Below are positions 26,516 to 29,322 of a DNA stretch of 64,000 nt, in pieces. Origin of the DNA: a virus. Its lineage: Duplodnaviria > Heunggongvirae > Uroviricota > Caudoviricetes. The stretch lies in the IMG/VR virus record IMGVR_UViG_2534682349_000001. The stretch is one strand, 5' to 3'. The translations under genes were made by a program, and so were the position numbers. Within the stretch, counting starts at the first letter, position 1, and every line of letters starts with the position of its first letter. A model generated the notes under the pieces. The model was not told the origin of the DNA. It ran no database searches and saw only the letters and a list, made by a program, of their open reading frames with translations.

Positions 26516-26981
26516 ACTTATATATCAAAATATTTATTCTGGTGGAACCCCTAACAGCTTTTGCCTTATTCCACATTTATTCCTACTAGCTTCATAGGAT
26601 GGGCATAGTCCTTATCCCTGCTAAGGGGCGCTGTCGTTACTCGCTGAATATTTTGATATGTTCTTGTTAAGGGAGACTCATTTCAAGACCTCAACATCAG
26701 TCGGTTGAATGACTACTTACGCGCTAAGGATGTATACTATCCTTTCATCATCTTCCCACCTGGTAGCTAACCCCACTCACGGATTCCGCACATGCCTACG
26801 CTCCGTCAGCGAATATTGTACCTGTCTTTTATAAAATCCTGATTTTCTCACCTGTTCAGGTTCAGTCTTGAATTAAAACCTCTGCGATCGGTCGTAACCT
26901 TTAATGCAAAGGGATTGTTCTTAAAGATTGATAGCTACGATTTTGTTTTATTTTGCGACCTCGGCTATCTGCTTGCCGCTA

Positions 26982-27076
26982 TACTCCCACCGAGACTCGA
27001 ACTCGGATCATCCAATAATCTGTTGGCATTCGCTCGGGTATAGACCGAGAGCCTTACCAATTAGGCCATGGGAGTG
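26982..27076 (-). tRNA. class II (long variable arm) tRNA with anticodon-loop sequence TCTATAC; isotype uncertain
   Basis: Acceptor ACTCCCA/TGGGAGT, D arm GCCTAATTGGTAAGGC, anticodon stem CTCGG/CCGAG, about 27-nt variable arm, T arm with TTCGAGT. Confidence 0.5.
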
Positions 27077-27254
27077 TAATAAAGAGGTGATTTATTTATA
27101 TTCGCAGCTACACCCCGCTGCTATCACATGCCAACAATACTAGGCAGCCTACCCCACCCTCGTGTTGACTTCGAGACACCAGTTTTACAGTCTATGTTTC
27201 CAAGGACACACTGGATTTACTCTCCGCTCCGTTAAGTGAAATACAATTCTAGCG

Positions 27255-27340
27255 ACGGTACACTAGAATCGAACCACCAATAAGGGATTCGAACCCTCAA
27301 CACCGCGTTGCAATCGCGCCTAGACATCTCATTTGGATTT
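27255..27340 (-). other. tRNA-like region with two T-arm-like motifs and an anticodon-like hairpin (CGCG-ATTGCAA-CGCG). No canonical acceptor found.
   Basis: GAGGG-TTCGAAT-CCCTT and GGTGG-TTCGATT-CTAG motifs on the − strand. Confidence 0.25.
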
Positions 27341-27513
27341 TATTTACTCCTCTTGTTGAACTCACACTTGCGGATTGTGTTTATCTCAAAGGTCTCCATC
27401 AATGCTCTACTAGGTTATCCAATACTTACCATATCCGCATTTATGACTTTCTTGGGTGGTATCCAAACTTGGTGAGAATAAATCAAATACTTAATTTTAA
27501 TATTTGATTTAAC

Positions 27514-27586
27514 TGCAAATATCGGATTCGAACCGATGACACAAGGTTTAACAGACCTCTGCTCTAACCAACTGAGCTAATTTGCA
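27514..27586 (-). tRNA. tRNA-Asn (anticodon GTT)
   Basis: Reverse complement reads TGCAAAT-TA-GCTCAGTTGGTTAGAGC-A-GAGGT-CTGTTAA-ACCTT-GTGTC-ATCGG-TTCGAAT-CCGAT-ATTTGCA. Confidence 0.7.
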
Positions 27587-27841
27587 AATAGTGGTAGTTA
27601 CAAACGATAATCACTACCTGATAGCACGCTTTTATCTCGGACTATCTTTTTTCGGTATTACTACTGTTACAAATACTTCTTCTATAACAGCGAATACATC
27701 ATTAGGTAATTAACCTAAACTCGTTAGAGCGCCCCTGCGTACTAGCAAGTTACTAGCTTGAGGACTTATATGATGGCTTCCCTATAACTCATAGCAATGG
27801 TGTGCGCCCCACCCTAACTACTAATCTGTCTGCCACCGGAT

Positions 27842-27913
27842 TGCGGTAACAGGACTCGAACCTGCGCATGACGGCACCAAAAACCGTTGCCTTACCAACT
27901 TGGCTATACCGCA
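27842..27913 (-). tRNA. tRNA-Gln (anticodon TTG)
   Basis: Reverse complement reads TGCGGTAT-AGCCAAGTTGGTAAGGC-ACGGT-TTTTGGT-GCCGT-CATGC-GCAGG-TTCGAGT-CCTGT-TACCGCA. Confidence 0.6.
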
Positions 27914-28476
27914 AGAATGCTTATTGGACTGGATTTGAACCAGTATCATGACCCAACCACTTCCTAATTCTGATCAGCTTAATCAGACACGACAACTGTC
28001 GCTCGGATTTGCACCGAGATTAGTTGGGTCTCTGACCTTGTAACATCAGCTAAATATTACTTTTAGAGTCACTACAATAAGCGGTATCCACCCAGAAACG
28101 TAAGATAGTAGATTGATAAGTTAAGAGCTTGTTGACTGTGCTAAGTATCAGTCTGATTACTCTTAGAGCTTATATCTTTTTGATGGACATTGACTTAGCA
28201 ATTCTGTCCACGAAAAGTAATCGATAGGACAACCACCAACCTACCTTGTAGAAACGCTGTTAAGCTTTCGTGGTCATGGTCACTCATTCTACTTTCACGG
28301 GGTTCGCCATGACGCGAGCCGCTTGGCTTTTCTTAATAGCCTGCCCAGGCTACCAAAATACAACACTTATTAATAAATAAGTGAAGCGCCATGATTTAGG
28401 CACATATCCACATTTGTTTTCCCTTACACGTTGACCTTTATCCTACTTTGCCGAGGAGGCAACTGCTTATCGGGAA

Positions 28477-28531
28477 TAGTCCTGTTGGGAATCGAACCCA
28501 ATTAATCTTCCTAGTACCATCAGACAGGACT
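28477..28531 (-). tRNA. mini tRNA-like element (about 55 nt): acceptor plus T arm with one 23-nt internal segment
   Basis: Acceptor AGTCCTG/CAGGACT, T arm TTGGG-TTCGATT-CCCAA. Too short for a cloverleaf. Confidence 0.25.
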
Positions 28532-29239
28532 CCAAACATAATACATGTATCGTTTCTTGGTTTATCGGAAGAAACTTGTTAGAAAAGACCGTATCACACT
28601 TTAGGGAAGTGATGGTCCCGGCGTTTTACCGCCGATTAAGGAGTCAAGGTCCAAGTTATCATCTACTATTTTTGGCGTGCTCCCTATTCTTATACACGTC
28701 CTTGGCATCGCAATGCTACAGGGAGAGAGGTTTCATACTATTGTTTCGAGGCCCAACCTTCCAGCCAAGTAGAATCCCATCTAAAACTGGGTATAGCTCC
28801 AGTACGCTCATCTCATTATCAAATGAGATATTTATAAAAGAAGCATTTTACTAACAGAAGGCATAAACTGTCATTCTTCCCACTAGTGGTCAGAACTTTT
28901 TCTAGACTGCTTTTTATTTTTCAAAGGCTTCCGCCAATAACTAGTATGACTTGCAATCTTGTGTTTGTATTATTCAGGGTGTAGATTACCAGATCACCCG
29001 AACCCGCAACCTGAGAATTAAACCCAGCATTAACTTAGGCAATATCTGCATCGCAGGTAGTCGCACACGCAACCATAACAATAAGAAGCGTGGCATCAAT
29101 CACATTACGAGCATTAGAAACTCCTCCAGTTGTGAGTAGGATACCTCGTATAAATCACATTACTGCCATTTATACTCAAGCGCTTCAACCGACATACCTG
29201 TTGCCGGTTTTCCTATTATACATATCCATATAACAGAAA

Positions 29240-29322
29240 CACCTAGAGAGGGATTTGAACCCCCGAACCCGAAGGAACGGTTTTGGAGACCGTCGCGTTT
29301 GACCAAACTTCGCTATCTAGGT
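29240..29322 (-). tRNA. tRNA with anticodon CCA (Trp-decoding loop CTCCAAA) but an enlarged D region and a 12-nt variable region
   Basis: Acceptor ACCTAGA/TCTAGGT, anticodon stem ACGGT/ACCGT, loop CTCCAAA, T arm GGGGG-TTCAAAT-CCCTC. Confidence 0.5.

What the first reader, a model, noticed from the sequence alone, without database searches (positions are those of the whole stretch)
26520..29240. Long ORF-free, highly structured spacers inside the tRNA array: candidate large non-coding RNA(s)
The tRNA genes account for only about 1.3 kb of the 4.6-kb region. Three spacers of 460–700 bp (26520–26980, 27990–28470, 28535–29240) have no ORFs, many GNRA-type hairpins (for example GUGAAAG and CGAAAG on the − strand around 28280–28350), and long-range inverted repeats (ATATCAAAATATT at 26521 pairing with AATATTTTGATAT at 26647). 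Large ornate RNAs of Lactobacillales phages, the GOLLD and ROOL classes, typically sit next to tRNA clusters. One of these spacers may hold such an RNA or a new one.
Basis: inference. Interest (0 to 1): 0.6.

Follow-up and report, generated by a model that had tools for sequence, protein, structure and literature searches.

The report
New structured RNAs between phage-plasmid tRNAs
The long gaps between tRNA genes on this Limosilactobacillus reuteri phage-plasmid hold conserved, folded non-coding RNA modules and anticodon-less tRNA look-alikes that match no described RNA family; what they do is unknown.

Summary
The 4.6-kb ORF-free block (25504-30119, all on the minus strand) looks like one RNA operon of a ~130-kb L. 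reuteri phage-plasmid. It has a near-consensus promoter, 8 tRNA-model hits, a tmRNA and a terminator.

The three flagged spacers are real and show no conserved coding potential. Two fold far better than shuffles (z -4.9 and -4.5) and fold better on the minus strand.

Fourteen related arrays are mosaics of the same modules. Where modules have diverged, helices keep pairing through compensatory changes: A3 domain, 163-nt giant tRNA-shaped RNA, C core, B2/B3 hairpins.

No GOLLD, ROOL, HEARO or other Rfam family matches, even at E<=10. The GNRA hairpins are not supported.

The spacers are not one giant RNA. They are a string of independently folding modules, bracketed by tRNAs or by tRNA-like elements that lack a normal anticodon arm.

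Best reading: RNase P and RNase Z cut at these tRNA(-like) elements and release new stable structured RNAs. These are analogous in setting to GOLLD, ROOL and T4 RNAC/RNAD. Structure is well supported; processing and function are inferred. The modules were found only in this one element family.

The parts
30091..30119 (-). Sigma-70-type promoter of the RNA operon: TTGACA-17-TATTAT.
   Evidence: 11 of 12 matches. The same promoter occurs in 8 relatives. The others carry one of two alternative promoter-like cassettes containing a TATAAT hexamer, about 95-125 nt upstream of tRNA-Arg.
29782..29919 (-). X1, a 138-nt tRNA-like element. It has a 6-bp acceptor stem, no D arm, a long 9-bp stem and a perfect T arm. 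It starts 1 nt after tRNA-Arg.
   Evidence: It is conserved in all arrays but too similar to show covariation. There is no Rfam tRNA hit.
29649..29680 (-). Acceptor-plus-T-arm minihelix.
28918..29238 (-). Module B1, about 320 nt, conserved 93-98% in most arrays.
   Evidence: The consensus fold has 86 pairs. Of 28 changed cells, 23 keep pairing, 2 of them through double changes.
28832..28851 (-). Invariant linker GTAAAATGCTTCTTTTATAA between variable cassettes. It overlaps the -10 of a promoter-like site at 28874-28845.
   Evidence: Its role as an internal promoter or a recombination anchor is not resolved.
28655..28831 (-). Module B2, alpha type: a hairpin at 28831-28809 plus a domain closed by TCTACT / AGTAGA.
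   Evidence: Diverged versions each have their own closing stem: CTACTC / GAGTAG in L018 and AATCTGATTA / TAATCAGATT in the beta type. All share the motif GGGCYTCGAAAYA.
28535..28654 (-). Module B3 hairpins, plus the conserved junction GAAACGATACATGTATTATGTT at 28556-28535.
   Evidence: The same helix occurs as CGGCG / CGCCG, CAGCG / CGCTG and CGACA / TGTCG.
28477..28531 (-). mini54, a tRNA-like element with a 7-bp acceptor stem and a T arm but no anticodon arm.
   Evidence: It scores 23 bits on the mascRNA model and gives no tRNA hit. Relatives have a 62-nt armless tRNA-like or a tRNA-Phe(GAA) at the same site.
28419..28476 (-). Module C0 hairpin.
   Evidence: Alternative hairpins at this site in relatives covary: TCTTCTTG / CAAGAAGA, TCTCTTTG / CAAAGAGA, TCTCCTTG / CAAGGAGA.
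28085..28401 (-). C core, about 315 nt. The 5' half is variable. The 3' half, C3 (28213-28085), is present in 15 of 15 arrays.
   Evidence: z -3.2. The consensus fold has 90 pairs, 5 of them compensatory, and many G-U pairs. Hairpin swaps include ACTTATT / AATAAGT versus ACTGCC / GGTAGT.
28139..28200 (-). Candidate kissing loops in C3: TGCTAAGT (28200-28193) and ACTTAGCA (28146-28139).
   Evidence: The two loops are perfectly complementary over 8 nt. The 7-nt core (GCTAAGT / ACTTAGC) is invariant in all 15 arrays; L011 changes the eighth base of loop 1. The adjoining stem covaries between GACTG / CAGTC and GGCTG / CAGCC. The chance of such complementarity is about 4e-4.
27919..28081 (-). Giant tRNA-shaped RNA, 163 nt. 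It has an 8-bp acceptor stem, two expanded arms (one holding a T-arm-like hairpin at 28018-28002) and a T arm at 27944-27928.
   Evidence: Of 47 consensus pairs, 11 show compensatory double changes and 2 are broken. The comparison is between two sequence types about 79% identical.
27274..27320 (-). tRNA remnant: an Ala-like anticodon arm plus a T arm, with no matching 5' acceptor strand. An 11-bp hairpin follows at 27273-27244.
   Evidence: L001 fuses the tRNA-Asn T arm to the sequence after this T arm, which points to recombination between T arms.
26776..26846 (-). Module A1: a conserved block containing the hairpin CTGACGGA...TCCGTGAG.
   Evidence: L011 has CTTATGAA...TTCATAAG at the same place, with two compensatory pairs.
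26513..26662 (-). It ends about 5 nt before a tRNA.
   Evidence: Covariance model R1 finds one copy in each of 11 arrays. 97.5% of cells are paired and 11 pairs show double changes, matched by 0 of 500 shuffles; slid controls give 1-2 (the alignment is model-fitted and includes one spurious row). By eye, P1, P4 and P5 all covary in L018 and L015.
25504..25550 (-). Terminator-like hairpin, AAAGCGTCAC...GTGACGCTTTTT.
   Evidence: Read from the sequence. It is conserved in 12 arrays. The consensus scanner did not list it because the loop is long.

Best explanation
The spacers are part of one polycistronic RNA operon, about 4.6 kb on the minus strand, of a Limosilactobacillus reuteri phage-plasmid. 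Between the canonical tRNAs and the tmRNA lie two kinds of element. The first is independently folding structured RNA modules: B1, B2, B3, C0, C core/C3, A1 and A3. The second is tRNA-shaped elements without a working anticodon arm: X1, the minihelix, the 69-nt and 60-nt tRNA-model hits, mini54 and the 163-nt giant.

The proposed mechanism has three steps.
1. The host's tRNA-maturation enzymes recognise every acceptor/T-arm unit. RNase P would cut at the 5' side. RNase Z would cut after the discriminator, because no CCA is encoded.
2. This cuts the transcript into defined pieces, as with plant mitochondrial t-elements or mascRNA.
3. The structured modules are released as stable non-coding RNAs.

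These RNAs are new families. They share the genomic niche of GOLLD, ROOL and T4 RNAC/RNAD. They probably act in the element's translation-takeover or anti-defence programme, possibly as RNA-RNA assemblies through the C3 loop-loop pair.

What is shown: co-orientation, promoter and terminator, conserved secondary structure and the absence of coding potential. What is inferred: transcription as one unit, cleavage at the tRNA-like elements, stability of the products and any function.
For: - **Operon layout.** A strong promoter and a terminator bracket the block. All 8 tRNA hits and the tmRNA are on the same strand.
- **Folding.** Spacers B and C fold far better than shuffles and fold better on the minus strand, and their consensus folds contain many G-U pairs.
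- **Compensatory changes.** The giant tRNA-like has 11 of 47 pairs with double changes. A3 helices P1 and P4 are supported by the pair count; P1, P4 and P5 all change compensatorily by eye. The C core has 5 compensatory pairs. The C0, B2, B3 and A1 helices exist in 2-3 different paired versions.
- **No coding signal**.
- **T-arm hairpins.** Fifteen sit in the 4.6-kb block on the minus strand (13 with all five stem pairs), against one perfect example elsewhere on that strand.
- **Bracketing.** Each structured block is bracketed by a tRNA or a tRNA-like element. Different tRNA-like cassettes occupy the same site in different arrays.
- **No encoded CCA.** None is seen after any acceptor stem. Discriminator-T is frequent, which fits RNase Z processing as known for CCA-less tRNAs in Bacillota.
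- **Precedents.** t-elements direct RNase P and RNase Z cleavage (PMC1920247). T4 RNAC and RNAD are stable RNAs of still unknown function that, from my own recollection, lie in the T4 tRNA cluster (PMC9697503 for their unknown function). GOLLD and ROOL sit near phage tRNA islands, and tRNAs are sometimes embedded in GOLLD (PMC12286853).
Against: - There are no expression data, so the transcripts, their ends and their stability are unproven.
- All 15 arrays come from one closely related family. Blocks are 78-99% identical, so most helices never vary and the covariation rests on a few diverged variants.
- Spacer A as a whole, spacer D and spacer E are not unusually stable (z -0.9, -1.6, -0.8).
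- Some T arms are clearly recombination remnants (27320-27274), so part of the sequence may be debris.
- The long-range 5' helix of the C core has no partner in the short L006-type variant.
- No homologue was found outside the family.
Confidence: 0.55

Rival explanations
1. The spacers are only processing spacers or insulators. Their folded leader and trailer segments exist to keep neighbouring tRNAs folding correctly and to order their maturation. They would be degraded after cleavage and have no function of their own.
For: They have the same operon layout and many local hairpins. A3 always ends a few nucleotides before a tRNA. Spacers A, D and E are not unusually stable overall.
Against: Blocks of 300-700 nt with multi-helix domains and invariant loops are far more than insulation needs. 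Examples are the complementary C3 loops, invariant in 15 arrays apart from one base in L011, and the A3 loops GAAGCTAG and ATAAGGCAAAAGC. Typical phage tRNA arrays have short spacers.
Confidence: 0.2
2. The spacers are mostly decayed tRNA genes and recombination scars in a rapidly shuffling array, and their structure is residual.
For: There are orphan T arms and a tRNA remnant at 27320-27274. L001 shows a T-arm-to-T-arm fusion. Module content and tRNA content are extremely mosaic between close relatives.
Against: Most spacer sequence (B1, B2, the C core, A3) has no tRNA resemblance. Helices are maintained by compensatory changes. C3 is kept in 15 of 15 arrays at about 95-100% identity.
Confidence: 0.1
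3. One of the spacers is a very divergent GOLLD or ROOL RNA that covariance models miss.
For: The niche is the same: Lactobacillales, a phage or megaplasmid, next to tRNAs. Spacer B is about 700 nt. The layout of a variable 5' part, an embedded tRNA-like element and a universally conserved 3' part (C3) recalls GOLLD (PMC12286853).
Against: Neither family hits even at E<=10 with relaxed filters on short slices. The region is modular and mosaic rather than one conserved fold.
Confidence: 0.04
4. The spacers encode small proteins.
For: Several ORFs of 30-92 aa exist. A 37-aa minus-strand ORF (29099-28986) is open in 8 of 9 relatives.
Against: They have TTG or GTG starts. Stops appear in relatives for the longer ORFs. 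The substitutions are mostly non-synonymous, and the 37-aa peptide is of low complexity. The changes fit RNA pairing instead.
Confidence: 0.02

Closest known systems
GOLLD RNA (Rfam RF01998)
   Same: It is a large structured RNA of phages and prophages, including Lactobacillales. It is often found in tRNA islands and sometimes has a tRNA embedded between a variable 5' part and a conserved 3' part. Its function is unknown (PMC12286853).
   Different: There is no covariance-model match. Here there is a string of separable, swappable modules rather than one conserved ~800-nt fold. Multimer formation is untested.
ROOL RNA (Rfam RF03087)
   Same: It is found in Lactobacillales phages and near tRNAs, and is probably co-transcribed with them (PMC5737381, PMC12286853). 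From my own recollection, it was also reported on a Lactobacillus salivarius megaplasmid.
   Different: There is no model match. The six-junction, three-pseudoknot architecture was not seen.
Phage T4 RNAC and RNAD (species 1 and 2 RNAs)
   Same: They are phage RNAs whose function is still unknown (PMC9697503). From my own knowledge, they are stable RNAs encoded inside the T4 tRNA gene cluster and matured with the tRNAs.
   Different: They are much shorter (about 120-140 nt). No sequence similarity was detected: a blastn search of GenBank phages returned only tRNA matches.
t-elements of plant mitochondria, and mascRNA of MALAT1
   Same: They are non-decoding tRNA-like structures (acceptor plus T arm). 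They serve as RNase P and RNase Z cleavage signals that define the ends of neighbouring RNAs (PMC1920247). mini54 scores 23 bits on the mascRNA model.
   Different: The setting here is bacterial or phage. Cleavage is not shown. The elements are far more varied, from a 32-nt minihelix to a 163-nt expanded cloverleaf.
Bacterial Y RNA (YrlA) and the tmRNA tRNA-like domain
   Same: They have tRNA mimicry with acceptor, T arm and sometimes a D arm, but no anticodon arm, joined to a long helix (PMC4201824).
   Different: There is no Rfam Y-RNA hit. No Ro60/TROVE gene is named in the annotation of a relative. A bona fide tmRNA is present separately at 26002-26379.

Membership tests
GOLLD (RF01998) | Match to the family covariance model (conserved 3' domain). 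| tested here: not met
   No hit at gathering score on the whole window. No hit at E<=10 on 25000-31000, 27900-29250 or 26500-27850.
GOLLD (RF01998) | Located in a phage or prophage next to tRNA genes. | tested here: met
   The region is a tRNA/tmRNA array of a phage-plasmid.
ROOL (RF03087) | Match to the family covariance model (about 580 nt, six multistem junctions, three pseudoknots). | tested here: not met
   No hit.
HEARO / IS605 omega RNA | Model match and adjacency to an IS200/IS605 tnpB gene. | tested here: not met
   No Rfam hit. No ORF over 100 aa lies within the block, and the flanking genes are dNK and a small hypothetical protein followed by PnuC.
Canonical tRNA (RF00005) | Cloverleaf with a 7-nt anticodon loop, scoring above the gathering threshold. 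| tested here: not met
   mini54, X1, the minihelix and the giant element give no tRNA hit at E<=10. The 69-nt and 60-nt elements pass the threshold (51.8 and 45.7 bits), but ARAGORN rejects them. They fold with a 4-nt loop or no anticodon arm.
tRNA-like processing signals (t-element / mascRNA type) | Acceptor stem stacked on a T arm with a T-loop consensus. | tested here: met
   The T arms and acceptor stem of the giant element covary.
tRNA-like processing signals (t-element / mascRNA type) | Cleavage by RNase P and RNase Z at the element's ends in vivo or in vitro. | not testable with these tools
   This needs end mapping or enzyme assays.
Bacterial Y RNA (YrlA) | Rfam match and linkage to an rsr (Ro60) gene. 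| tested here: not met
   No Rfam hit. No TROVE/Ro product is named in the annotation of NZ_CP065541, although many of its genes are listed only as 'hypothetical'.

The most novel reading that the evidence does not exclude
The array is a modular 'RNA arsenal'. Its tRNA-shaped RNAs have missing or hypervariable anticodon loops, and its ornate modules may self-associate through conserved complementary loops such as the C3 pair TGCTAAGT / ACTTAGCA. Together they would act as decoys or RNA-only assemblies against host tRNA-targeting immunity. Cassettes would be exchanged between phage-plasmids in an arms race.
Probability: 0.12. Interest if true: 0.85.

Novelty: new variant of a known kind. Interest (0 to 1): 0.58.

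Why it matters
Large structured RNAs in phage tRNA islands (GOLLD, ROOL) are among the least understood bacterial RNAs, and they have recently been shown to form RNA-only cages. This locus adds about 3 kb of unrelated structured RNA in the same niche, on a cultivable and genetically tractable probiotic species.

It has three unusual features:
- The modules are swapped between near-identical elements.
- They are bracketed by tRNA mimics that lack anticodon arms.
- They sit with a phage-borne tmRNA and NAD-salvage genes.

That makes testable the question of how such RNAs are matured and whether they belong to translation takeover or anti-defence. The limits are that the family is narrow, so the comparative evidence is thin, and no function can yet be assigned.

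Tried and rejected
- **Rfam.** Gathering thresholds on the window and on four loci gave only tRNA, tmRNA, rli28 and Transposase-1. E<=10 scans on three slices added nothing.
- **GenBank phages.** Megablast and blastn returned only tRNA hits.
- **Exact-pattern scans.** IMG/VR, GTDB genomes and JGI metagenomes returned only members of the same L. reuteri element family.
- **A3 loop pattern.** A loop-motif pattern for A3 pulled 48 IMG/VR stretches. Model R1 found no true homologue in the 43 of them from outside this element family.
- **Paralogous A3 copies.** None was found in the window.
- **Coding potential of spacer ORFs.** Rejected.
- **Promoter at the junction ATACATGTATTATG.** No convincing -35 element and not flagged by the scan.
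- **Orphan T arms as split or intron-containing tRNAs.** I looked for distant 5' acceptor strands. Only X1 and mini54 gave convincing partners. The 27298 and 25982 T arms have none.
- **MAFFT alignment of A3.** It misaligned the replaced closing stem, so a covariance model was used instead. That alignment leans towards the model and contains one spurious L002 row.
- **X1.** It could not be tested for covariation because it is too conserved.
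Full report
**What is in the region.** ARAGORN finds six tRNAs and a tmRNA, all on the minus strand between 26005 and 29996. Rfam at gathering thresholds adds two short tRNA-model hits, at 29472-29540 (69 nt) and 25605-25664 (60 nt). It finds no other family in the block. No ORF over 100 aa lies between 25520 and 30160.

A near-perfect promoter (TTGACA-17-TATTAT, 30119-30091) heads the block. A hairpin followed by a U-tract (25550-25504) ends it. In relatives the promoter position holds the same promoter or one of two other promoter-like cassettes containing a TATAAT hexamer. 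The terminator is conserved in 12 arrays. Together the tRNA hits and the tmRNA account for about 1.0 kb of about 4.6 kb.

**Where it comes from.** Neighbouring genes are phage- and plasmid-like: RecD2 helicase, DnaB-like helicase, deoxynucleoside kinase, PnuC, ParM-like actin, integrases, NAPRTase and a C5 methylase. GenBank phages share only about 31% protein identity.

A 23-mer from spacer C hits Lactobacillus reuteri ATCC 53608 plasmid p53608_1, 138,515 bp. Two other L. reuteri plasmids of about 130 kb share the array. Those plasmids carry RepA/ParM together with a terminase, a tape-measure protein and a holin, so they are phage-plasmids. The published description of p53608_1 lists its tRNA genes but says nothing about the spacers (PMC4667477).

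**Checking the observation.** Spacer B (28532-29238) and spacer C (27915-28477) fold much better than dinucleotide shuffles, at z -4.9 and -4.5. The minus strand is 35 and 23 kcal/mol more stable than the plus strand, whose z-scores are -2.0 and -3.2. Spacer A (26517-26981) is not exceptional overall, at z -0.9. Spacers D and E are not either.

The strings GTGAAAG and CGAAAG exist, but they are not hairpin loops in the consensus fold. The ORFs inside spacer B are broken or change non-synonymously in relatives.

**Known families.** Relaxed Rfam scans (E<=10) of the whole block and of two 1.35-kb slices give no GOLLD, ROOL, HEARO, group I/II intron, Y RNA, RNase P or riboswitch match. The only non-tRNA signal is a 23-bit mascRNA-like score for a 54-nt element at 28478-28531. 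A blastn search against 50,697 phage records finds only tRNA matches.

**Comparative material.** Fourteen related arrays were collected.
- Four came through the flanking kinase gene.
- Two came through a spacer 23-mer in IMG/VR.
- Two came from PLSDB.
- Six came from metagenomes.

All belong to the same element family. The arrays are strikingly mosaic. Blocks 78-99% identical to the window alternate with unrelated segments, and the tRNA complement differs from array to array. Conserved linkers flank sites where alternative cassettes sit. Examples are GTAAAATGCTTCTTTTATAA at 28851-28832 and GAAACGATACATGTATTATGTT at 28556-28535.

**tRNA-like elements hidden in the 'spacers'.** T-arm hairpins (a 5-bp stem with a T[TG]CRANY loop) occur 15 times on the minus strand of the block, 13 of them with all five stem pairs. 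Only one perfect example occurs on that strand in the remaining 59 kb. Besides the eight tRNA hits and the tmRNA they define the following elements.
- **X1 (29919-29782).** It has an acceptor stem, a long stem and a T arm, with no D arm.
- **A 32-nt minihelix (29680-29649).** It is an acceptor stem plus a T arm.
- **mini54 (28531-28477).** It has no anticodon arm.
- **A 163-nt expanded cloverleaf (28081-27919).**
- **A tRNA remnant (27320-27274).**
- **An orphan 3' half after the tmRNA (25982-25958).** (for all six.)

The 69-nt and 60-nt tRNA-model hits fold with a 4-nt 'anticodon' loop or with no anticodon arm at all.

The giant element exists in two sequence types about 79% identical. Of 47 consensus pairs, 11 show compensatory double changes and 2 are broken. 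Both T arms and the first acceptor pair are among the covarying positions.

At the mini54 site, other arrays carry a 62-nt armless tRNA-like or an extra element plus tRNA-Phe(GAA). L001 joins the tRNA-Asn T arm directly to the sequence that follows the 27298 T arm in the window. So some orphan T arms mark recombination between T arms.

**Structured modules.**
- **C core (28401-28085).** The consensus fold has 90 pairs, 5 of them with compensatory changes, and many G-U pairs. Two hairpins are replaced by different hairpins in relatives.
- **C3 (28213-28085), the 3' half of the C core.** It is present in all 15 arrays. Its two hairpin loops, TGCTAAGT and ACTTAGCA, are perfect complements. The 7-nt core of the pairing is invariant in all 15 arrays (L011 changes the eighth base of loop 1), while the adjacent stem covaries. 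The chance of such complementarity is about 4e-4. This is a candidate kissing-loop contact.
- **C0 site.** It carries hairpins in three covarying versions.
- **Spacer B.** It resolves into three parts. B1 has 86 pairs, and 23 of 28 changed cells keep pairing. B2 is a domain whose alpha, alpha' and beta versions each have their own closing stem. B3 has a helix that appears as CGGCG / CGCCG, CAGCG / CGCTG or CGACA / TGTCG.
- **Spacer A.** It contains the A1 hairpin, which has two compensatory pairs in L011, and the 150-nt A3 domain.
- **A3 (26662-26513).** A covariance model finds one copy per array in 11 arrays. On the resulting alignment 97.5% of cells pair and 11 pairs show double changes. 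That is matched by 0 of 500 shuffles, and slid controls give 1-2. The alignment is model-fitted and includes one spurious row. By direct reading, L018 replaces the 13-bp closing stem with an unrelated 10-bp stem. L018 and L015 also change P4 and P5 compensatorily.

**Interpretation.** The structural evidence shows that much of the 'spacer' sequence is constrained as RNA on the tRNA strand. The layout is a structured block, then a tRNA or tRNA-like element, then another structured block. No CCA is encoded, and a T frequently follows the discriminator. This suggests that RNase P and RNase Z cut the polycistronic transcript at every acceptor/T-arm unit. Anticodon-less tRNA mimics would then act as punctuation, as t-elements do in plant mitochondria (PMC1920247).

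The released RNAs would be new members of the loosely defined group of phage tRNA-island RNAs. That group includes GOLLD and ROOL. T4 RNAC and RNAD, which by my own recollection lie in the T4 tRNA cluster, are a further precedent. All are of unknown function. The neighbouring tmRNA and NAD-salvage genes point to a host-takeover or anti-defence setting, but this is inference only.

**Limits.** There are no expression data. Only one closely related family is available. Most pairs are invariant. Parts of the spacers (D, E and the middle of A) have no support. The long-range 5' helix of the C core lacks a partner in a shorter variant. No homologue was found outside the family.

**Verdict.** The GOLLD/ROOL/HEARO assignment is rejected. 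The idea of new structured RNA is supported, but the RNA is a mosaic of modules plus tRNA mimics rather than one giant RNA.

Noticed in passing
window 26002-26379 (-): A full-length tmRNA (76 bits, tag ANNHRVTALAA) is encoded inside the array of a phage-plasmid. ARAGORN finds it with the same tag in 10 of the 14 related arrays. tmRNA genes carried by phages are, as far as I know, uncommon.
   Followed up: partly
window 26441-26516 (-), and homologues in L001, L005, L014, L015, L017, L018: The tRNA after the A3 domain keeps the same acceptor stem in all arrays, but its anticodon loop differs: AAA in W, L011, L012 and L015; GGT in L001, L005, L014 and L017; ACA in L018. By my reading of the W, L015 and L018 loops, position 33 appears to be G, not the universal U. 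It may not be a decoding tRNA. Hypervariable anticodon loops on one scaffold are unexplained.
   Followed up: partly
window 29239-29323 (-) and 26982-27075 (-): These are class-II-shaped tRNAs (long variable arm) with unexpected anticodons. One is CCA with discriminator G, and its homologue in L004 and L016 carries GTA. The other is a 94-nt tRNA with TAT. Which amino acid they carry, if any, is unclear.
   Followed up: no
window 25958-25982 (-) and about 25900-25937 (-): A perfect T arm plus a 3' acceptor strand lies directly after the tmRNA. About 24 nt downstream is a stretch that looks like a tRNA 5' acceptor and D-stem (GCTAGAGTAGCTCAAT). It is either a permuted-looking arrangement or two unrelated fragments.
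   Followed up: no
window 15111-15286 (+): There is an Rfam hit to the Listeria sRNA rli28 (73.5 bits against a gathering score of 45) in a Limosilactobacillus element, far from the array.
   Followed up: no
window 4942-7324 (+) and 30726-31484 (-): A NAPRTase-family protein, a phosphoribosyltransferase-domain protein and a PnuC nicotinamide riboside transporter are present. These are NAD-salvage genes, which as I recall some phages use against NAD-depleting defences.
   Followed up: no
window 55000-59000: The composition is anomalous: GC falls to 28-30% and GC skew jumps to +0.45 at 56-57 kb. The anomaly lies just beside the ParM-like gene (60156-61361). It may be a replication or partition region.
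   Followed up: no
L012 2501-3429: One relative has two protein genes (a hypothetical protein and a DUF2513 protein) inserted inside the RNA array between the class-II tRNA and the B block. So the array also accepts protein-coding cassettes.
   Followed up: no
about 95-125 nt upstream of tRNA-Arg in all arrays (window 30091-30119): Three unrelated promoter cassettes occupy the same position in different arrays: TTGACA-17-TATTAT, a TGGACA...TATAAT type, and a TAGACT / TTGATA...TATAAT type.
   Followed up: partly
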